Notes: generated by a model not told the origin, from the sequence alone. Positions 358 through 62,925 are shown, counted from the stretch's first letter. The stretch is 64,000 nucleotides of DNA from Octopus vulgaris (GCA_951406725.2 OX597817.1:76198001-76262000), one strand, 5' to 3'. A program made the numbers and translations.

Positions 358-990
358 GGGCGGCGAGCTGGCAGTAACGTTAGCACTACGGGCGAAATGC
401 TTAGCTGTATTTCGTCTGCCGCTACGGTTTGAGTACAAATTCCGCTGAGGTCGACTTTGCCTTTCATCCTTTCGGGTCGATTACATAAGAATAAGTACCA
501 GTTACGCACTGGGGTCGATATAATCGACTTAATCCGTTTGTCTGTCCTTGTTTGTCCTCTCTGTGTGTAGCCCCTTGTGGGTAGTAAAGAAATAGGTATG
601 TCGTCTGCCGTTACATTCTGAGTTCAAATTCCGCTGAGGTCGACTTTGCCTTTCATCCTTTCTGGGTCGATAAATTAAGTACCAGTTACGCATTGGGGTC
701 GATGTAATCGACTTAATCTCTTTGTCTGTCCTTGTCTGTCCCCTCTATGTTTAGCCCCTTGTGGGCGATAAAAAAAGTAAGAATCGTTTCTGTGCCGGGA
801 AACATGCTTAACGTCATTTCTTCTGAATTTACATTTTGAGTTCAAATACCGTCGGCGCTGATTTTGTCTCTCATCCCTTTGGGGTGGGTGTGTCAATAAA
901 ATAAGTGCCACTTCAACAGTAAGGTCTAACTGATTGACTTATCTCTCCCTCAAAACTGCTAACCTTGTGCCAAAATTTGAAACCAATATT
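358..990 (+). mobile_element. Tandem copies of tRNA-derived SINE family A (GGCGGCGAGCTGGCAG... head)
   Basis: Head with B-box-like GAGTTCAAATTCC and core GTCGACTTTGCCTTTCATCCTTTCGGGGTCGAT...AAGTACCAG. The same sequence recurs many times in the window on both strands. Confidence 0.85.
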
Positions 991-1022
991 ATTTATCATT
1001 TTTCCCTAATATTTAAACATAT

Positions 1023-1060
1023 AGGCGCAGGAGTGGCTGTGTGGTAAGTAGCTTGCTAAC
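1023..1060 (+). mobile_element. 5' part (A box) of tRNA-derived SINE family B, interrupted by two insertions
   Basis: AGGCGCAGGAGTGGCTGTGTGGTAAGTAGCTTGCTAAC matches the start of uninterrupted copies at 9193 and 42373. The continuation resumes at ~5261. Confidence 0.92.
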
Positions 1061-3044
1061 TGCGCATGTGCGAGTCAGTGTTGTGTTTGCTACTGAAGCA
1101 GTGAAGATGTGCTTTTGAAGCCGTCTTGAATTGAAACTTTGGAAGCCCCATGTAAGGTGAGATTCTGTTTTCTGGGTCCAGTGGGAGTTTTTGTTGAGAA
1201 TTATTTTTTACATGCAGGAAGTCCTACTGGATTCAGAAATCTGATTCTGCCGACATGTGGCAGATATATTTTCTCGCTGAGAAAATTTTGGGGGGCGTAT
1301 CCGTCTCCGAATTGTGAAAATTGTATGGTGCTGTGAAGAACTACCAATTTTACACCAATTTTTGTGGAAGTTGTGCGATCCTGGTTCGATTTAGGCCGGG
1401 AGTACCAAATGGCCAAAAGGATTTTGCTGTGTTTTTGACTTTCTTTTTAACTTTATTTGACTTTCTTTTCAACTTTATTTGACTCTCTCCGTTTTTCATT
1501 GTGACATTCTTCGGATTTCCTTTTCTTCTCGTTTTTTAGTTTTATTCTAAATACATTTATTTAAAAAAAAAACAAAAAAAAAACATGGCAACAAAAGAAA
1601 CCACCGCTTTGGAATGGGAGGTCGTCCCACCAAAGCAGTGGATTGAAAGTCTTGAGAAGAGGACGGTGGTCCTACGAACCTATTCTAGGTCGCGTGGAGC
1701 CATTGCCCTCTTCGACAAGAATACTATAGAGAAAGAGTTGGGGGACTACCTGCCAACTATAAAATTTATTTCTCGGGGGAGCAAATTTGCAACGGTCTGG
1801 TTGCTGTTTGGTACCCCCGAGGAAGCTAGCAGATTTGCTAGCGAGCCACTGGAGGGAGAGGAAATTTTGTTCCTCCCCTCGTATTGTGGCAGAAAAGTGA
1901 AAAGAGCCTGGGTGTGTGGGCTGCCCCCGGGCACGGAGGCGGAATGGATCGAAAAGACCATCCGGCGAGGCCTGGGGGATAGCGGACCCAGACTGCTAAG
2001 TGTGAAGGTGGCTCCCGCGGTCGCCTGGCAGGGGTCGAGGGCAACCTTGACCCTGTGGACACCGGTAGCCGTGGGGCAAATGAAATTCCCGGACTTCCTG
2101 AGAATGGCTGGGCACAGGTACCCGGTGATACTCGAGGGTCGCCCCCCCAAGTGTCACCTGTGCCTGAAGCCCGGACATATCAGGAAGAATTGTCCCAGGG
2201 GCCGTAGTGGTGCCCCGGAGCAGAGAGGGGAAAAGGCGCCCGCCGCCCCCTCATTGGAGGGGGAGACGATGGAAGTCGTGGAGGAGGTTGCCTCCACGAA
2301 AAGAAAGAGAAAGGCGAGCAACAATGGTTGCCCGCCAAAGAACGCTCAGGGGGCGAAGGGGGATAGCAATCCCCCGTGTCTGGTGACGGAGTCCCCTGGG
2401 TCAGCAGTCTCCCCCAAAAGAAGGAGGAGAAAAAGGAGAGGTCGGACGACTGACGTTTCTGTGTCGCCGACGGAGCCGCGGGTGGGATGTGTGCCACCCG
2501 CGGACAAGGCTCCGCCAGTGGGAAGTGTGCCACCGACGGAGGAGTGTGAGGTCCCTCCCTGTGAAGAGGAGATGCTTCTCCTCCTTTACCACAAGGGAGA
2601 GAAGGTTGAAAGATTCTTGACTGGCTTGGGTGACCGAGAGCGTAAGGACACGGTCGGCTCAAGGAGTCCGTTATGGCCTCCGCAGGTAGCTGCGGAGAAA
2701 GTAACAGAAGATACTTTGTCAAGGGTCGCAGAGACCTTTGAAAAGAAAGACTTTACCTTTCTCTTTGCAGGCCCCGACTTGTCGTCGCAGAGTTGTCTGC
2801 AGGCGGCAAGACAATTTGCTTCGGGGACCTGACGAGAAGAATTATTGAACATTTTTATGCAATTTGAATCATTGTTTATTAAATGTATTTATTGAAACAT
2901 TGTTTTAGAGAAGCAAAAGTCGGCGGGCGCTTTCGACTTCTCCCATCACCATCTTCATCAACCACCACCATCATCCATTAATGTCCTTGTCCAGCCCGTA
3001 GCTACTACTCTGTGTACTGCCCTAGTGGCAAATTATTTAAAATA
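1061..3044 (+). mobile_element. ORF1-only non-autonomous Tx1/L1-like retroelement, copy 1
   Basis: Perfect 15-bp TSD AAGTAGCTTGCTAAC (1046-1060 and 3045-3059). Single gag-like ORF. Structured 3' end finishing AATA(AA). Homologous to the adjacent copy 2. Confidence 0.85.
1585..2832 (+). CDS. Tx1-type ORF1 / ZCCHC3-like nucleic-acid-binding protein (415 aa)
   Basis: Intact ORF with AAACATGG start. Zinc knuckle EGRPPKCHLCLKPGHIRKNCP (CX2CX4HX4C). RRM-like N-terminal half (VWLLF, AWVCGLPP). Basic NLS-like runs KRKRK and KRRRRKRR. Confidence 0.88.
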   Translation: MATKETTALEWEVVPPKQWIESLEKRTVVLRTYSRSRGAIALFDKNTIEKELGDYLPTIKFISRGSKFATVWLLFGTPEEASRFASEPLEGEEILFLPSYCGRKVKRAWVCGLPPGTEAEWIEKTIRRGLGDSGPRLLSVKVAPAVAWQGSRATLTLWTPVAVGQMKFPDFLRMAGHRYPVILEGRPPKCHLCLKPGHIRKNCPRGRSGAPEQRGEKAPAAPSLEGETMEVVEEVASTKRKRKASNNGCPPKNAQGAKGDSNPPCLVTESPGSAVSPKRRRRKRRGRTTDVSVSPTEPRVGCVPPADKAPPVGSVPPTEECEVPPCEEEMLLLLYHKGEKVERFLTGLGDRERKDTVGSRSPLWPPQVAAEKVTEDTLSRVAETFEKKDFTFLFAGPDLSSQSCLQAARQFASGT

Positions 3045-3046
3045 AA
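2901..3046 (+). other. Conserved structured 3' end of copy 1
   Basis: GAGAAG(2908-2913)/CTTCTC(2937-2942) stem. Loop GCGGGC is complementary to GCCCGT (2994-2999). Terminal TGCC-ctagt-GGCA hairpin, then AATAAA. Conserved in copy 2. Confidence 0.7.
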
Positions 3047-3762
3047 GTAGCTTGCTAACCACACATGCGCAGTTAGTCGGTTGCTTCCTGTTGAGCTAGA
3101 GTGGACGTGAGTAACAAGCTCCTTCCAACTAAAGAAAAAAGACCAAAAACGGAAAGTTGTCGAGGTAAGTGATTTTGTTTATTGTGAGTTGGGCATAATT
3201 TATTGCGTGCCAATTATTATTTCAGTAGGTTGTGTCCAACTCTGAGACAATTTCGCCTGCGCTAGGCGGCTGCCGTTTTTGTGTTCATTGAAAAAAAAAA
3301 AAAAAAGAAAAAACAGTGGAGGGGCGTATCCTCAGAATTCAATACAGTTACTGTTAAAATCACCGTTGGCGGTAGCCAGTGCTGTGTTTGGATTTGTTGA
3401 ATTTATTCCCTTGTCAGAGTACTTCGCAAGAAAAGTATAAAAATAAGCCACTATTGGATTACCTTTCGGACCTTTTTGTGGAGGTTGTGTTGCAGTTGCG
3501 GTGTTCCAGGTTCAACCCAGGCCGGGAGTACCGCAAGGCCAGAATATTTTTGCTGTGTTTTTTCTGTTTATTAACTTTCTTTTGAACTTCATTTACCCCC
3601 CCCCCCCTTTTGTTTTTTCTTTATTGCGACTTTCCGTTAATTTCTTCCCTTCTGTTGTGCTTTCTCCTTTTTGTTTTTTCAAAAATCTATCAAATTTATT
3701 TAGACTTTTGAACTTTTTTCTTCCTGCTTTTGAGTCTAATTTGAATATATTTTTTAAAAAAC

Positions 3763-4950
3763 ATGGCAATGAAAAATAACAAAGTTTTGGAGTGGGAAAT
3801 CATACCACCCAAAAAGTGGTTGAAGGACCGTGAAGATAGGACGGTGGTGTTGAGAACCTACTCCAAGGCACTTGACACCATCGCCCTATTCGAAAAGACG
3901 GCAAATAAGGAGGAGTTGGAGGAGTATTTGCCAACAATTAAATTCATTTCCAGGGGTGTCAAATATGGAACGGTGTGGTTGCTGTTTGACACCCCTGAAG
4001 AGGCTTGCAAATTTGCTAGCGAACCCTTGGAGGGTAAGGAAATCTTATTCCTGCCCACTTACAAAAAAAAGAAATTGATGAAAGCTTGGATCTGCGGACT
4101 GCCACCCGACATAGAACCCGAGTGGATAGAGGAGACTATCCGCCGGGGTCTGGGTGACAGCGAAACTAAGCTCCTCAATGTAAAAGTTCTTCCTGCGGCT
4201 GCTTGGGTTGGCTCGAAAGCAGTTTTGACCCTGTGGACCCAATCAGCCAATCTGGTTTTTCCAGATTTTTTGAAAATGGCCGGGTGCAGGTACCCGGTGA
4301 TGCTTGAGGGTCGCCCCCCTAAGTGTCATCGGTGCTTGGAGTCCGGCCACATAAAGAAGAATTGTCCTCGGGAACAAAATAGGATCCCGGAACAGTTAAG
4401 TAAAACCCCTCTAGAAGAGGGAACGATAACGGCCGAGAAAGCAGAGGACTCCTCAAGCAGAGGCCGAAAGAGGAAGGTGAGCAACAATGGGTGCTCACCA
4501 AAGGATAATAGGGATGAGGAGAGGAGGGCGAATCTTCCAGCCACGGAGGAGACGCACCCTCCCTCAGTTGAAAAGGGAAAAAAAAAGAAAAAGAGGAAGA
4601 AAAACGGGACGTTGCCGGCTGTCAGTGTGGCACCGGAATGTCGCGGAACTACGTCGGTTGGGGTTGTGCCACCGACAAGAGAAGGAATACCGTTGGCGGA
4701 AACTGTGCCGCCAACGAAAGAACTGAATGTATTGGTCCTCTTCTATAGAGGAGGAGAAATTGAAAAAGTGATGGAAGAGCACTACAAGGGAGCACCTTTA
4801 GCCTTCACACTAGGGCTAAAGGAGCTCAATGAAGACTATAACTTGGTCCCGGGCGACGCGAACTCGGAACTTGACTACGTTCTGAGGGAGGCGTGGTTGA
4901 TGGTGGAGGGCGCGGGCACAAGCTATTTCGAGGACGATATGTATTATTAG
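3763..4950 (+). CDS. Tx1-type ORF1 / ZCCHC3-like nucleic-acid-binding protein (395 aa)
   Basis: Intact ORF with knuckle EGRPPKCHRCLESGHIKKNCP. About two-thirds identical to copy 1 over the first ~160 aa by manual count. C-terminus divergent. Confidence 0.88.
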   Translation: MAMKNNKVLEWEIIPPKKWLKDREDRTVVLRTYSKALDTIALFEKTANKEELEEYLPTIKFISRGVKYGTVWLLFDTPEEACKFASEPLEGKEILFLPTYKKKKLMKAWICGLPPDIEPEWIEETIRRGLGDSETKLLNVKVLPAAAWVGSKAVLTLWTQSANLVFPDFLKMAGCRYPVMLEGRPPKCHRCLESGHIKKNCPREQNRIPEQLSKTPLEEGTITAEKAEDSSSRGRKRKVSNNGCSPKDNRDEERRANLPATEETHPPSVEKGKKKKKRKKNGTLPAVSVAPECRGTTSVGVVPPTREGIPLAETVPPTKELNVLVLFYRGGEIEKVMEEHYKGAPLAFTLGLKELNEDYNLVPGDANSELDYVLREAWLMVEGAGTSYFEDDMYY

Positions 4951-5077
4951 TAATGGACTTAAGTCCAAAAATTGAAAAATTGTAAGAGGATTAATACCTC
5001 GTTTTGTATTAATAATGGACTGCTAAGCCCAAAATTGGAAAAATTGTAAGAGGTTTAATACCTCGTTTTGTGTTAAT
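4951..5077 (+). repeat. ~62-bp imperfect tandem duplication in the 3'UTR of copy 2
   Basis: TAATGGACT...AATTGTAAGAGG(A/T)TTAATACCTCGTTTTGT(A/G)TTAA occurs twice. Confidence 0.85.
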
Positions 5078-5094
5078 CTTTTTAAGAAGAACAA

Positions 5095-5248
5095 TGTTTT
5101 AGAGAAGCAAAAGTCGGCGGGCGCTTTCTGTCTTCTCCCATCCTTAACATCTTTCTTTCATTATCATTCACCTCATTAATGTCCTCGTCCAGCCCGCAAA
5201 GCTAACTTAATCTGTGTACTGCCTTTATGGCAAATGTTTTGAAATAAA
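5095..5248 (+). other. Conserved structured 3' end of copy 2
   Basis: Same GAGAAG/CTTCTC stem, GCGGGC/GCCCGC pairing, TGCC-tttat-GGCA hairpin and AATAAA as in copy 1. Confidence 0.7.
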
Positions 5249-5260
5249 GTAGATTGCTAA

Positions 5261-5620
5261 CCAACTACATGGTTCCGGGTTCAGTCCCACTGCGTGACAT
5301 CTTGGGCAAGTGTCTTCTGCTATAGCCCCGGGCCGACCAGTGCCTTGTGAGTGGATATGGTAGACGGAAACTGAAAGAAGCCTGTCGTATATATGTATAT
5401 ATATATAAGTTTGTGTGTCTGTGTTTGTCCCCCTAGCATTGCTTGACAACCGATGCTGGTGTGTTTACGTTCCCGTCTCTTAGCGGTTCGGCAAAGAGGC
5501 CGATAGAATAAGTACTGGGCTTACAAAGAATAAGTCCCGGGGTCGATTTGCTCGACTAAAGGCGGTGCTCCAGCATGGCCGCAGTCAAATGACTGAAACG
5601 AGTAAAAGAGTAAAAGAGTA
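5261..5620 (+). mobile_element. 3' remainder of the interrupted SINE family B copy
   Basis: CCAACTACATGGTTCCGGGTTCAGTCCC (B box), internal TA/TG repeat, and tail GGTGCTCCAGCATGGCCGCAGTCAAATGACTGAAAC followed by (GAGTAAAA)n. Confidence 0.92.
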
Positions 5621-14170: not shown

Positions 14171-14201
<31 letters not shown>

Positions 14202-14202
<1 letters not shown>

Positions 14203-16628
14203 CACCGGACCACAGACTTTATTAGAAGAATCAGGTGGGCGGCCTACCATTTCGATAACCCGGAGAAAAGCAACCCCAACTCTAACCAAGAAGAAATAGC
14301 ACACAGGAAGATATTTAAAAGCAGAAGAAACCCACCCTCTAACTACGCACTGGAAAATTTTGAAAAAGACTTAATCGACCTCATCACCAACATCAACATT
14401 AGTAAACATAAGACCATTTCCAACACCCACTTAAGGAGCCTTAAAGATTTCCTGCATTCACTTAGGAACGATGATAGTCTTATCATACCCGCCGACAAGA
14501 CTGGGAACTGTTATAGGCTAGACTACCAAACCTACAAATCGCTCATCATGAGGGAACTTAGCAAAAAGTATAAAACTACTTCTACGGATAACCTTAAGGA
14601 AATTAACTACAAAATCAAGGAAATTATGAGCAAATTAGACCTCCTGGACAGAACAGAACCTATTAAACCACAAGTACCCAAAATTACTATTAAAGACCAT
14701 AAGAAAGACTTCCCAGATAGTGTAGGAGTACGATTAATCTGTCCGACTAAATCGGATATCGGCAGACTTAGCAAGACTATCCTGGACAAGGTGATCCCAC
14801 ACATCAAACCCCACATCCCACTCCAACTATGGATTAACACCGACGATGTGCTAGAATGGTTTAACACTATCACCAATAGGCCCGACTACTCATTCATCCA
14901 ATTCGACATAGCTAGCTACTACGCCAGTATATCCCCCATCTTACTTAACAAATCCCTTATTTTTGCCCGCAACCTTTCACTCATAGACAGAGAAAAATTG
15001 ACATAATTCTATTAGCTAGAAAAACCATAATAGAATTCGACGGTAGACTCTGGACCAGATCCGATACCCCCGACAATTTCGATGTGGCTATGGGCTCGAG
15101 CGATTCAGCTCAGGTGACTGACTTGGTCGGGGCCTACCTGCTCAAGAAGCTTTTCTCCGAGGTACCGGATCTTCAGGGGGGTCTATACAGAGACGACGCT
15201 CTCTTCATATACCCCACCAACAATAGGAGTAAACTAGAAAGAATTAGGAAAAAGATCAGGCTTTTTTTCAAATCCTTCAATCTTAAACTAGAATTTATGA
15301 CCAATACTAAAATAGTAAACTTCTTAGATGTTACGTTAGATTTGAATAAGCACCTTCACCACCCGTATAGGAAACCCGAAGAAACTACCAAATACATCCA
15401 TACCTCTTCCAACCATCCACCCTGTATAATTAGCACCACGGTCCAAGCCATCTCAGACAGACTGTCAAAACTATCCTCTAATAGAGAAATTTTCAATAAT
15501 CATGCACAACACTACAACCAGGCTCTCTATAGTGCCGGGTATAACCAGAGAATATCATATGTAGACCACCCGGGAGCGTCCGTCGGCCATAAGACTCCCA
15601 ATTATAATCGAACTCAGCACTCAACTCACACTAGCGATAATTCTAATTTAAACTCCAAACAACGTATAGGAAATAGGCGAACTAATAGAATAGCACACAA
15701 TAGTAACCCTCCCGACGAGAGCAATATAGATCCTATTAGGAGAAATAGAAGGGATAATAGCAGATTACGCAAATATATATGGTTCAACATACCTTTCAAC
15801 TTAGCAGTTAGGGGTAAGTTATGTAAGAGAATATTCTCTATAATTTCCAACAACTTCCCACCCACCCACAAGTATAGAAGTATCTTCTCCAACAAAACTA
15901 TTAGGATTTCCTACTCTACCCTGCCCAACATGAGCTGCCTCATAGCTAAACATAACTATATTAATATTAGAACAGCTAGATCAAGAGCAAACCATAGCGA
16001 CCAACAGAACCCCCCTCATCTAGACAGTAGACAATATAACCAGACTGGCAGCCATACTACCCAAACAGTTAGTAATAACACCCGCCAACACAACAGAGGA
16101 AATACTACACCCATCAACAACCAGGAGGATACCAACGCCCCCACTCGTATTGCAACACCTCCGCCTGGGATTAGCAGCACACGACCGAATAATGCAATGC
16201 AATGCAACTGCAGATGTGCATCAAAGTGCCCGCTGCAGGGCGCATGTAGGGCGAAAAACGTAATATACTCATGTGAGGTGAGTACTCAGTTTAACACACT
16301 CACCTATATTGGTTGCTCAACCTCCTGGAAATCCAGATACTACAACCACCGGTCCTCGCTGAGACACAGACATAAGGCTAACAGCACCTCCCTCTCTAAA
16401 AGAATTTGGGAATTAAAAGACAAATGCATAGGCTTCAAACTCAGATGGTCCATCATCGGATCAGCTGCACCTTATTTAAATAATAGAGCAGGATGCCAAC
16501 TATGTTGTGTAGAACTCCTGAACATCCTGAAATTCAAAGACAAACACAATCTTATTAACAAAAGGTCAGAGTTCAAACCATCCTGTATACATAAACTTAT
16601 TAATACTTTCAAATACTACAATGCTTAG
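14202..16628 (+). CDS. PLE reverse transcriptase-GIY-YIG polyprotein (one frameshift at ~14990-14998, 5' end missing)
   Basis: Motifs IIPADKTGN, FIQFDIASYY, FDVAMGSSDSAQVTDLVG, LYRDD, VNFLDVTLDL, CNCRCASKCPLQGAC and NVIY..TYIG..R..H. The second frame is open from ~14997 into ORF 15084-16628. Confidence 0.9.
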
Positions 16629-41902: not shown

Positions 41903-42970
41903 AAGGCGGCAGGTTGGCAGGGCGTTAATACGCTAGGCAAAATACTCAGCGGCATTTCGTCCGTCTTTCCATTCTGAGTTCAAATTCCGCCAAGGTTGCT
42001 TTTGCCTTTCATCCTCTTAGGGTCGATAAAATAAGCAACAGTTGAGCACTGGGGTCGATGTAATCGACTTACCTCTCCACCACAATTGCTGGCCCTGCAC
42101 CAGAATTTGAAACCAGTATTTAATATCTCCATAAGGCGACGAACTTGCTGAATCGTTAACATATCGAGCAAAATGCTTAGCGACATTTCGTCTGTCTCTG
42201 CGTTTTGAGCTAAAATTCTGCCGAGGTCGACTTTACCTTTCATCTTTGTGGCGGTGGGGAGTTGATAACATAAGTATCATCTGATTACTGTAGTCGATGT
42301 AATCGACTTACCCCTTCCCCTGGAGTTGCTGGCCTTGTGTAAAAATTTGAAACCTGTATTTGATATCTCCATAGGCGCAGGAGTGGCTGTCTGGTAAGTA
42401 GCTTGCTAACCAACCACATAGTTCTGGGTTCAGTCCCACTGCGTGGCACCTTGGGCAAGTGTCTTCTACTATAGCCTCGGGCCGACCAAGGCCTTGTGAG
42501 TGGATTTGGTGTGTGTGTGTGTGTGTGTGTGTATATGTTTGTGCGTTTGTGTTTGTCCCCCCAACATCGCTTGACAACCGATGGTGGTGTGTTTACGTCG
42601 CCGTAACCTAGCTGTTCGGCAAAAGAAGACTGATAGAATAAGTACTAGGCTTACAAAAATAAGCCTTGGGGTCGATTTGCTCGACTAAAGGCGGTGCTCC
42701 AGCAAGACTGCAGTGAAATGACTGAAACAAGTAAAAAGAGTAAAGGGTATAAGGCGACGAGCTGGCTGAATCATTAACATGCCGGGCAAAATGCTTAGCG
42801 GCATTTCGACCATCTTTACATTCTAAGTTTAAATTCCGCCGAGGTTGACTTTGCCTTAGGCTCGATAAAAAGCATACCAGCTGAATACTGGGATCGATTA
42901 ATTGACTTACCTCTCCCCCGGAGTTGCCGGCCTTGTTCCAAAATTTGAAGCCAGTATTTAATATCTCCAT
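41903..42970 (+). mobile_element. SINE cluster A-A-B-A, including an uninterrupted family B copy (42373-42750)
   Basis: The B copy shows the empty target GGTAAGTAGCTTGCTAACCAACCACAT. Confidence 0.88.
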
Positions 42971-60079: not shown

Positions 60080-62085
60080 ACCTTCTTGAGTCTATCCACA
60101 GACATAATCACTTTTTCCGTTAAGGTCTATTGTGAATACTTTGTCTGTGCGATTAAGAACCCGGCAATGTCCAGAGTATGGAGCTGTGAGAGGATGCCTC
60201 ACAGCATCGTTGCAGATGAACACATGGGTCCACGTAGAAATGTCCTTAGGTACTGCAGACTTCACGGATTGTGACCGAGTGTTCATAGGTGGCAGATGAC
60301 AGAAGTATGACCGCAAAATCCTTAGAAGCATTATTAGTTGGTGTCAAAATCTGGCCAGGCAATGATAACGGTACCCGATAAAGCAGTTTAGCAGCAGAAA
60401 AGCCCAGGACCGCTTTCACGGAGGACCGACAACCCAAAAGGGTAGGTACTCGATCCATCTTGGGGGATTTGGTGATGCACTAAGAGCTATTTTCAATTGA
60501 CGGTGGAAGCGCTCTACCATCTCGTTAGACTCGGGGTGGTAGCTTGTCGTGTGCTACCAGGAGGTGGGAAAGTTAGCGGAAGAGCTGTGATTCAAATTGT
60601 CGCCTCCGATCAGTGGTGATCTTTGAGGGAACACCGAAACGCGATATCCAGCCTGATATCATAGCGCGAGCGACTGATTCAGCGGAGATGTCCACTAGGG
60701 GAATGGCTTCAAGCCGCCGGGAGAAACGATCTATACAAATTAACATGTACGAAAAACCTGGATGCGATAAAGAGAGAAGCGCATCAAAAACTATGGGCGA
60801 TAACAAGCAGTCTGGGTGATCCAGTAGAAACACCGCAGAGGATCTTTCCATCAGCAGATGGAAGTGGCAGGTATTCAAACTTGCAACAAGAAAAACTGAG
60901 CAGAAGAAACGTCAATCGAATCCAACGATGGTTGGTCTGAAGCAATTGCAACCAAATAAATAGCAGCAGAAGAAAGGGAACATACTGAAAGCTTAGACAA
61001 GAAGGTGTCAGCTGGTATATTTGAAGTTCCAGCTATGTGGCCAATGTCATTGGTGAACTGAGAAATGGAATCCAAGTAGCTGTATGCTCTCGGTGAGTAC
61101 GTATCCGATTTGGATTACAGAGCAAACGTAAGTGGTTTGTGATCTGTGAATATCACGAACTCTCGACCTTCAAGGAGATGATGAAAGTGTGTCATGGTAC
61201 GATAATCAGCTAGCAGTTCCCTGTCAAAGTTACTATACCGCAGTTCTGCTGGCTTCAATTGGTGTGAAAAACATTCCCAAAGTTGAGTCAAGTGGTCAAC
61301 TTGAAGAGACGGTTACAGAAAGCTTGGCGTTCATTTTAGGATGAACGAGTAAGGAAATTTGAGCAAATTCAGTCTTGACAGATTTAAGCGACTGCAACGC
61401 ATGAGGAAAGAGAGAAACAGGAGCGACTATCTTTTTTCTATCTTTCAAGAACTGGGGTAAAGCAAATAGCTTGTCCGCACATATGAGAATGAAATGGCGA
61501 CAGAAATTTATCAACCCTAGGAAATGCCGTAATTGTCTTAATAAGATGGATGGTGCAAGATGCTGAATCGCTCCGCCCTGTGCAGGTGGAGGTCGAATGC
61601 CTTTAGAGTCAATAAGTTGTGCCAGGAATTCTAACGAAGAAACGCCAAATACGCACTTGGTGGGGTTGACCTTGACGTTGTAAGATCGAAGAAGCTGCAA
61701 TAACTGAGATAAATGCTGATGATGATGCTCAGCAGTATTTCTGGCTATCAAAATGTCATCCACATATGCAAAAGACAAAATCCAACCCACGAACAACTTC
61801 CTCAATAAATCGCTGGAAAGTACTGGCAGCATTGTGCAGTCCAAATGGCATGGATAAGAACTCGAACGAGCCAAATGGTGTGGTCAAGGTTGTTTTCGGG
61901 ATGTCTGCCGAGTTCACTGGTATTTGGTGGTATGCGCGTACTAGGTCAATTTTACACAAGACAGTGCATCCATGGAGAGCAGAGGAAAAATCCTGAAGGT
62001 AAGGGATAGCGGTCAGGGATAGTAATGGCATTGAGGCGTCTATAATCACCAACCGGCCGGAAGTTCTGGTTTCTCTTTTCGCCAT
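60080..62085 (-). pseudogene. Decayed Ty3/Gypsy pol (RT, RNase H, integrase)
   Basis: [70 protein letters not shown] and [33 protein letters not shown]. Frameshifts and stops present. Confidence 0.92.
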
Positions 62086-62150
62086 GTGTACACAGGTACA
62101 CACACGAACACACATATATTTATACATACAAACATACACACACACGCGCG

Positions 62151-62187
<37 letters not shown>

Positions 62188-62190
62188 ACG

Positions 62191-62244
<54 letters not shown>

Positions 62245-62925
62245 AACAATTTGAGAAAAAAATGTCCAAATCAATCAGGTGTAACCCTACAGCGTTTTAT
62301 GCATCTACATATCGTACTTTGGGGTCTTATTTATCGTATATCTATATATTTATCTATAAATATAGAAAGTATCTGATAAAAGTCAATATACCAGCGGTGG
62401 TGCCCCAGTATGGCCGCAGCCTTCGGGCTGAAACATTTTTAAGAATTTATACCTGAAGATGTGTTGGAATAATTGTAAATCTGACGATTGAATGTATGTA
62501 TTTATATGTTTATATATATGGGTATACAGTTGTGTACATGTATATATATTGTAATCTTCCATTACTGAAATACGTGTAGTTCCTTCAAATTTGATAAATA
62601 TAAATATTAACTAAAGTATGATATAATCAATGAAGTACATTATATACCCAGCTGGAAATTTTGGTTATATCCGTTAAGTATTATTTCGTGATGTGCAAAC
62701 TGGTACCATGAGTTTACTGTAAGATTAGGTTATTTTTGCATTATCTGAAATAGAATATCGATTAATCCCCCAAAATTGAATATACATATATAGATATTTA
62801 TATACATACACATACATATCTGTATATGCGTGTTCCTGAATATATGTAAATATGTATGTTTGTGTGTGCATGTACGTGAGTGTGTACGTGCGTATGTGTA
62901 ATGTATATATATATATATATATATA

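What the first reader, a model, noticed from the sequence alone, without database searches (positions are those of the whole stretch)
1157..3225. Equal-length (61 nt) candidate intron in the 5'UTR of both retroelements
Copy 1 has AAG|GTGAGA (1157) to TTTTTTACATGCAG| (1217). Copy 2 has GAG|GTAAGT (3165) to TTATTTCAG| (3225). Both are 61 nt and lie ~100 nt from the element 5' end, although the internal sequence is not alignable. A retained sense intron in an element that moves via RNA is unusual. It would imply separate spliced mRNA and unspliced transposition template, as known for Penelope elements.
Basis: partly seen in the sequence, partly recalled or inferred. Interest (0 to 1): 0.7.

Follow-up and report, generated by a model that had tools for sequence, protein, structure and literature searches.

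The report
Hairpin-masked splice donor in octopus retroposons
Two related jumping genes in a likely octopus genome each carry a 61-base intron-like stretch near their start, predicted to fold into a long conserved RNA hairpin that likely hides its splice signals, which would explain why none of about 200 genomic copies checked has lost it.

Summary
Both 61-nt GT...AG stretches are there. They lie in two ORF1-only, half-LINE-like elements stacked at one site of a tRNA-derived SINE; the scan has already reported this element family on other DNA. Splicing is not shown: 0 of 61 A-type and 0 of at least 139 B-type genomic copies are intronless, and no run on record as RNA was available. The donor motif is kept in 29 of 30 diverged versions, an acceptor-like AG at 57-65 nt in only 17 of 30. 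The two UTRs are homologous, so equal length is shared descent, not convergence. Best reading: a conserved donor-like site, likely masked by structure and rarely spliced, as for human L1's G98U99 donor. A Penelope-like split into spliced mRNA and unspliced template remains possible (~20%) but untested.

The parts
1021..1045 (+). 5' part of the tRNA-derived SINE head into which the elements are inserted
   Evidence: same sequence precedes an empty SINE at 42396; contigs join it to 5260-5270
1046..1060 (+). target repeat 1 (15 nt)
1061..3044 (+). element A, ORF1-only non-LTR element, about 2.0 kb
1145..1261 (+). predicted long RNA hairpin of element A holding both candidate splice sites
   Evidence: -58.5 kcal/mol, z -6.91, antisense z -2.35; covariation
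1157..1217 (+). 61-nt GT-AG candidate intron A (5' arm and loop of the hairpin)
   Evidence: kept in 61 of 61 genomic copies at the donor side
1585..2832 (+). ORF1 of A, 415 aa: two predicted RRM-like domains and a CCHC knuckle (aa 189-204)
2905..3044 (+). 3' tail shared by A and B; its last ~30 nt are also shared with the autonomous partner; ends AATA with no poly(A)
3045..3059 (+). target repeat 2 between A and B
3060..5246 (+). element B, ORF1-only non-LTR element, about 2.2 kb
3145..3280 (+). predicted long RNA hairpin of element B holding both candidate splice sites
   Evidence: -56.6 kcal/mol, z -6.82, antisense z -1.57
3165..3225 (+). 61-nt GT-AG candidate intron B (second AG at 3227-3228)
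   Evidence: no copy joined to either acceptor
3763..4950 (+). ORF1 of B, 395 aa, 66-67% identical to A in the first ~205 aa
5247..5261 (+). target repeat 3 (one mismatch)
5262..5600 (+). 3' part of the host SINE (right end approximate)
   Evidence: sequence

Best explanation
The 61-nt stretches are the 5' arm and loop of a predicted long RNA hairpin conserved in the 5'UTR of a family of ORF1-only retroelements, and the hairpin likely masks a conserved splice-donor-like site so that the RNA is likely seldom spliced and the same unspliced RNA would serve as both message and transposition template. Shown: the sequence, the covariation of the stem, the strict conservation of the donor letters, the looser conservation of the acceptor, the absence of intronless copies, and a complete LINE with the same target and 3' end. 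Inferred: the elements are copied in trans by that LINE's ORF2 through target-primed reverse transcription; the donor letters are kept because they bind U1 snRNP or a transcription factor and so support expression (as shown for the RUNX3 site at human L1's donor); a spliced copy would lose half of the hairpin and be a dead end. The equal 61-nt length comes from common descent, perhaps helped by a short-intron size constraint.
For: Fold z -6.91 and -6.82 on the sense strand against -2.35 and -1.57 antisense. GT and AG paired with probability 0.93-1.0 in the whole-UTR ensemble of both elements. On 19 subfamily representatives 88.2% of cells pair, 14 of 26 pairs show a two-sided change (shuffles 8.1 +/- 1.4, 0 of 500 as high; slid controls 3-7). 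The middle helix covaries freely (11 of 13 pairs) while the donor helix hardly does (1 of 8), so its letters are constrained beyond pairing. Among 30 model-found versions under 90% identity: -1 G 30, +1 G 29, +2 T 29, +3 and +4 purine 30 and 30, +5 G 28; +2 stays T opposite G in 25 (wobble) and +4 A faces C in 6 (mismatch), the letters U1 needs rather than those the stem prefers (U1 pairing rules recalled). Acceptor-like AG absent in 7 of 30, only at 75 nt or more in 5, and first at 57-65 nt in 17. No intronless copy: 0 of 61 A (44 separate loci once arrays are merged), 0 of at least 139 B, i.e. under about 1.7% (rule of three). The autonomous partner has a donor-like site paired at 0.92-1.0 but no AG from +9 to +131. 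Precedent: L1's G98U99 donor is conserved, mostly unused, needed for promoter activity and suggested to be sequestered in structure (PMC5860796, sections 10 and 17).
Against: The donor-to-CAG distance stays 61 nt across A- and B-type subfamilies although the stem register differs by 4 nt between them, and many C-type versions also have a T-rich AG at 60-65 nt, which fits a real length-constrained intron. Representatives are related, so counts are not independent events; the 19 rows of the first alignment were anchored on the donor, and the structure was drawn from these sequences. Folding is predicted only. No test of U1 or transcription-factor binding was possible. One subfamily has a weakened donor (GTGGAA/GTGGGG, 3 of 30), although it carries a second repeat with an intact one.
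Confidence: 0.55

Rival explanations
1. It is a real, regulated 61-nt intron: the spliced RNA (hairpin destroyed) is the translated message and only unspliced RNA is copied into the genome, as described for Penelope-like elements.
For: Complete U2-type ends in both window copies; GT 29 of 30, acceptor-like AG at 57-65 nt in 17 of 30 versus 1 of 26 other donor-like sites in the window; 61 nt kept across A and B despite a shifted stem register; a -57 kcal/mol hairpin in a 5'UTR would hinder scanning, so removing one arm could switch translation on (inference). Penelope and Chlamys-3 keep a 5'UTR intron over their promoter (PMC8557442 passages).
Against: No acceptor in 7 of 30 versions or in the autonomous partner; both sites predicted paired; 0 intronless copies in about 180 loci although a trans-mobilised element needs only its 3' end and L1 does retrotranspose spliced RNA (about 1.8% of full-length copies); the elements lack Penelope's RT-GIY-YIG and pseudo-LTR architecture.
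Confidence: 0.22
2. The motif has nothing to do with splicing: AGGTRRG and its partner CTGCC are an inverted pair of DNA promoter sites, or a conserved RNA helix bound by ORF1p/ORF2p or cut by Dicer/ADAR, and the AG is a by-product of T-rich loops and pairing.
For: The partner strand is also well conserved (C 29, C 28, G 25 of 30); +4 is G in 20 of 30, less usual for donors (recalled); some subfamilies fold well on both strands; the unit is repeated in tandem in several UTRs like promoter monomers; L1's donor is explained by a RUNX3 site.
Against: The donor strand is more constrained than its partner (5 gaps at two partner columns, A-C mismatches tolerated); many G-U pairs and strand-biased folding point to RNA; an unrelated UTR group (autonomous partner and relatives) also has CG|GTRAG near its 5' end.
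Confidence: 0.2
3. Chance: GT and AG happen to lie 61 nt apart in T-rich UTRs.
For: The two copies are homologous, so they count as one event.
Against: Donor letters are conserved where neighbouring columns are not; background 1 of 26; covarying stem.
Confidence: 0.03

Closest known systems
Human L1 5'UTR splice donor G98U99 and SpIREs (PMC5860796; read: abstract, section 10, section 17 part 1 of 2)
   Same: A conserved donor about 100 nt into the 5'UTR of an L1-group element, mostly unused in genomic copies; the authors suggest sequestration in RNA structure.
   Different: L1 is autonomous, its acceptors lie 500-900 nt away, spliced copies exist (about 1.8%), and no covarying hairpin was shown there; here the stretch is 61 nt, inside a covarying stem, with 0 spliced copies found.
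Penelope (75-bp) and Chlamys-3_cRei (398-bp) 5'UTR introns (PMC8557442; read: passages)
   Same: Short 5'UTR intron-like stretch retained in genomic copies, near the likely promoter.
   Different: Those introns are shown spliced and the elements are RT-GIY-YIG PLEs; these elements encode only an ORF1 and depend on an APE-RT LINE.
HAL1 (half-L1) (PMC5753468; read: passages)
   Same: Non-autonomous L1-group derivative encoding only ORF1p.
   Different: Mollusc lineage, sequence-specific insertion, tandem arrays, no poly(A) tail, 21-31% ORF1 identity to the complete LINEs seen.
Tx1-clade elements that target other repeats: Tx1/Tx1D, Tx1-Mar and SINEU-3 (PMC4494074; read: passages and section 15)
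   Same: Target-specific insertion into another repeat, tandem copies sandwiching a target duplication, non-autonomous passengers.
   Different: Target here is a tRNA-derived SINE head; passengers code for ORF1; no 5'UTR donor/hairpin is mentioned in the parts read.

Membership tests
U2-type spliceosomal intron | GT donor matching AG|GTRAG | tested here: met
   GT in 29 of 30 diverged versions
U2-type spliceosomal intron | YAG acceptor after a pyrimidine tract | tested here: inconclusive
   present in both window copies (9 of 13 pyrimidines) and 30 of 30 A and 29 of 29 scored B copies; across subfamilies 17 of 30 at 57-65 nt, none in 7 of 30
U2-type spliceosomal intron | branch point | not tested
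   no branch-point model run; a CTAAT is visible in B relatives only
U2-type spliceosomal intron | exon-exon junction in RNA | tested here: inconclusive
   no run on record as RNA; contigs of runs only guessed to be RNA show no such joint
U2-type spliceosomal intron | processed (intronless) retrocopies, expected if spliced RNA is copied | tested here: not met
   0 of 61 A, 0 of at least 139 B; exact exon-end patterns see young copies only
HAL1-like ORF1-only non-LTR element (works-like class) | single ORF, no RT or endonuclease | tested here: met
HAL1-like ORF1-only non-LTR element (works-like class) | ORF homologous to ORF1 of complete L1-group LINEs | tested here: met
   tblastn E 1e-14 to 1e-29 to ORFs upstream of RT ORFs; alignment; two-RRM fold matches
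HAL1-like ORF1-only non-LTR element (works-like class) | target duplication and 5'-truncated copies | tested here: met
   6-15 nt exact repeats in 21 single insertions scored; truncated copy L174 with 13-nt repeat
HAL1 proper (mammalian) | poly(A) tail and descent from mammalian L1 (feature recalled) | tested here: not met
   copies end AATA directly on the target
Tx1 clade (autonomous partner) | ORF1 with CCHC plus ORF2 with APE, RT and zf-RVT | tested here: met
   L218, L211: PF03372, PF00078, PF13966, PF00098 over cut-offs
Tx1 clade (autonomous partner) | target-sequence preference | tested here: met
   L211, L212, L218 flanked by the same target repeat
Tx1 clade (autonomous partner) | RT phylogeny with named Tx1 elements | not tested
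   none of 21 homologues carried a clade name; the Tx1 label rests on architecture and on L1-Tx1 being listed as active in an octopus
Penelope-like elements | single ORF with RT and GIY-YIG endonuclease | tested here: not met
Penelope-like elements | spliced 5'UTR intron overlapping the internal promoter | not testable with these tools
   no start-site, promoter or confirmed RNA data

The most novel reading that the evidence does not exclude
A non-LTR, ORF1-only retroelement with a genuine 61-nt intron that is gated by a conserved hairpin: folded RNA stays unspliced and is the transposition template; unfolding (by ORF1p, a helicase or ADAR editing) lets it splice, destroys the hairpin and turns on translation. 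This would be Penelope-like intron retention reinvented in the L1/Tx1 group by an RNA-structure switch.
Probability: 0.2. Interest if true: 0.7.

Novelty: new variant of a known kind. Interest (0 to 1): 0.42.

Why it matters
How retroelements keep splice signals without losing them on copying is open: for L1 the authors could only suggest that the donor is hidden in RNA structure, and for Penelope-like elements the meaning of intron retention is stated to be unknown. This family offers dozens of naturally diverged UTRs in which the masking stem covaries while the donor letters stay fixed, so the idea becomes directly testable with a 140-nt reporter. If splicing proves rare, it is a neat but modest feature of a repeat family the scan has already reported.

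Tried and rejected
RNA evidence: no RNA holder listed among 24 runs, so expression and splicing stay untested. Seven runs only guessed to be RNA, all as assembled contigs, were laid (X1, X6, X17, X19; X6, X11, X12, X20). In one search the joint table was filled by empty-SINE joints (15 shown, 83 not shown), so it says nothing. In one search all 12 listed joints were other rearrangements; none joined 1156-1218 or 3164-3226/3229 and none had GT..AG ends. Unspliced contigs cross stretch A (X1) or its donor (X12) and stretch B (X1, X6, X19, X20), but these may be DNA, antisense or intronic host RNA, and contigs drop rare forms; not counted either way. Subfamily C intronless test: 29 of 53 matches continue GTAGG, the other 24 are at the chance level (control 30) and were not fetched: inconclusive. 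Rfam: only 2 weak matches inside ORF1, far below gathering scores; no ribozyme or miRNA family at the hairpins. Upstream-ATG removal as the purpose of splicing: rejected, B has no ATG in the stretch and A keeps five others. Penelope membership: rejected (no RT/GIY-YIG). Convergent equal length: rejected (homologous UTRs). The covariance model could be run only on loci in hand (84 sources), not genome-wide. The HAL1 primary paper was not held. Look-ups of earlier scan notes by this hairpin's sequence and by words gave nothing. One search includes 26 antisense or partial matches and was not used for counts.

Full report
Observation. Both stretches are as described: 1157-1217 and 3165-3225, each 61 nt, GT to AG, starting 97 and 106 nt after a 15-nt target repeat. 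B has a second AG three bases on. In the window, both strands, 28 sites read AG|GTRRG and 3 have a pyrimidine-preceded YAG at 58-65 nt; two of these are the finding. The interiors do not align beyond chance (106 of 1000 shuffles), the surrounding 160-180 nt align weakly (15 of 1000).

The elements. A (1061-3044) and B (3060-5246) each hold one ORF (415 and 395 aa) with a sub-threshold zinc knuckle. An AlphaFold model from a 13-sequence alignment (pLDDT 81.9) matches tandem-RRM proteins such as hnRNP A1 (best E 3e-5, TM about 0.3). The ORF is 21-31% identical to ORF1s lying upstream of complete APE-RT-zf-RVT ORF2s in the same genome. The only database homologue of ORF A is named from Octopus sinensis (61%), so the genome is probably an octopus. 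The two elements are stacked inside a tRNA-derived SINE head with the target repeat at 1046, 3045 and 5247; an empty SINE is at 42396. The genome holds many copies (455 and 255 first-look candidates, 40 scored each; 163 exact matches of a tail motif), often in 2-kb tandem arrays mixing subfamilies. A 5'-truncated copy with a 13-nt repeat (L174) points to target-primed reverse transcription. Three complete LINE copies (L211, L212, L218) use the same target and end in nearly the same last 30 nt, a likely helper. I reached this reading before looking at earlier scan notes; seven of the eight notes returned describe the same family on other DNA and the eighth is this stretch, so the family itself is not new to the scan.

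Is the intron ever lost? Exact exon-end patterns followed by wildcards list what follows in every matching copy. A: 60 matches plus 1 in the complementary search; 56 GTAAG, 2 GTGAG, 1 GCAAG, 2 ATAAG, all continuing into the stretch, 0 joined; merging four arrays leaves 44 loci. B: 139 matches, 100 listed, all GT (93 GTAAG, 7 GTGAG); the exclusion search that would show either junction returned 10 matches, all GTG. So fewer than about 1.7% of about 180 loci are spliced copies (rule of three). These patterns see only young copies. For human L1, spliced copies from one 5'UTR event are about 1.8% of full-length insertions (PMC5860796, discussion), so rare splicing is not excluded. For subfamily C the test was inconclusive. 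RNA could not be tested properly: see Tried and rejected.

The hairpin. Each stretch is the 5' arm and loop of a long stem-loop whose 3' arm lies in the supposed second exon: A 1145-1261, -58.5 kcal/mol, z -6.91; B 3145-3280, -56.6, z -6.82; the antisense strands give z -2.35 and -1.57. In whole-UTR ensembles GT and AG are paired at 0.93-1.0. From 170 element starts in the fetched loci, 38 clusters were formed (several are SINE continuations or truncated copies and were dropped); 19 with this UTR type were aligned. On that alignment 88.2% of cells pair and 14 of 26 pairs change on both sides, against 8.1 +/- 1.4 in shuffles (0 of 500) and 3-7 in slid controls; the tool warns that kinship and structure drawn from the same sequences inflate these figures. 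The middle helix covaries in 11 of 13 pairs, the donor helix in 1 of 8. A covariance model found 101 matches in 84 sources; the 75 sense-strand matches above 53 bits reduce to 30 at under 90% identity (26 antisense or partial matches dropped). In these 30 the donor reads -1 G 30, +1 G 29, +2 T 29, +3 purine 30, +4 purine 30, +5 G 28, while +2 faces G in 25 (wobble) and +4 A faces C in 6. Those are the letters U1 pairs with (recalled), kept at a cost to the stem. The acceptor is looser: the first acceptor-like AG at 50 nt or more lies at 57-65 nt in 17, at 75-123 nt in 6, and is absent in 7 (one of these has one at 40 nt). In A- and B-type versions the distance to the homologous CAG column is 61 nt in 9 of 10, although the stem register differs by 4 nt between A and B (from the folds). 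The autonomous partner has an unrelated UTR with CCG|GTAAGA paired at 0.92-1.0 and no AG between +9 and +131. Some ORF1-only subfamilies with other UTRs show no such donor or stem.

Mechanism. The best-supported reading is a conserved donor-like site masked by a conserved stem, with unspliced RNA serving as message and template. A trans-mobilised element needs only its 3' end, so abundant spliced message should leave intronless copies (inference); none was found. The L1 precedent is close: its G98U99 donor is conserved, mostly unused, lies in a RUNX3 site whose mutation cuts RNA to about 18%, and is suggested to be sequestered in structure (PMC5860796, sections 10 and 17). A non-splicing role for the motif (DNA site or protein-bound helix) is about as likely.

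Literature. Ten searches found no paper describing an intron or a donor-masking hairpin in Tx1-type or ORF1-only elements of cephalopods; most listings were seen as title and abstract start only. An octopus repeat annotation lists 13 recently active L1-Tx1 families and has no occurrence of 'intron' in its main text (PMC13282606, passages). HAL1 is defined in PMC5753468 (passages); Tx1 targeting of other repeats and tandem SINEU-3 in PMC4494074 (passages and section 15). No supplements were read; repeat libraries there, and Repbase/Dfam entries, may already hold these consensus families.

Verdict. Observation confirmed; interpretation partly supported and unproven; a new variant of known kinds (HAL1-like passenger of a target-specific Tx1-type LINE, with an L1-like masked donor); interest 0.42.

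Noticed in passing
L071, L075, L078, L080, L083, L085, L169, L204 (5' versus 3' junctions): The 5' copy of the target repeat often matches a subfamily-typical sequence rather than the local SINE variant at the 3' end (exact match 8-10 nt in 14 of 21 single insertions, 15 nt in 5), suggesting the RNA carries a few target-like bases at its 5' end.
   Followed up: partly
window 3040-3046 and 5242-5248: Elements end in AATA and complete an AATAAA with the first bases of the target; no poly(A) at any junction seen. Cleavage just downstream would leave target sequence on the RNA 3' end, a possible aid to precise insertion (inference).
   Followed up: partly
L152:3565-4058, L167:8759-9349, L168:1203-1590 and 3454-4040: The ~200-nt hairpin unit is repeated two or three times in tandem in some 5'UTRs, like promoter monomers; where the first unit's donor is weak the second is intact.
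   Followed up: partly
L154, L155, L160, L161: Another complete LINE family forms 5.4-kb tandem arrays flanked by a different fixed target, next to a sequence with a hammerhead-like core (motif recalled, not tested).
   Followed up: no
L213:667-2154 and L214:6989-8483: A further 1.5-kb ORF1-only family, only about 28-32% identical to ORF A and without the donor/hairpin, uses the same target and tail: a likely separate origin of a half-LINE.
   Followed up: partly
L151-L153: A non-target-specific complete LINE carries a C-type hairpin UTR inside an array, and another is nested inside an ORF1-only copy: UTR swapping and nesting.
   Followed up: no
window 14200-16628 (+): Two overlapping frames (306 and 559 aa) with RT-like and GIY-YIG-like motifs (recalled), a likely Penelope-like element with one frame shift; Pfam gave no RT hit.
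   Followed up: partly
window 60573-62274 (-): Fragments with RVT_1 and integrase (rve) domains: a broken LTR-type retrotransposon.
   Followed up: no
window 407-790: Two tandem copies (period 184) of a short repeat whose 3' end resembles the 3' end of the complete non-targeted LINEs: likely a SINE that borrows that LINE's tail.
   Followed up: no
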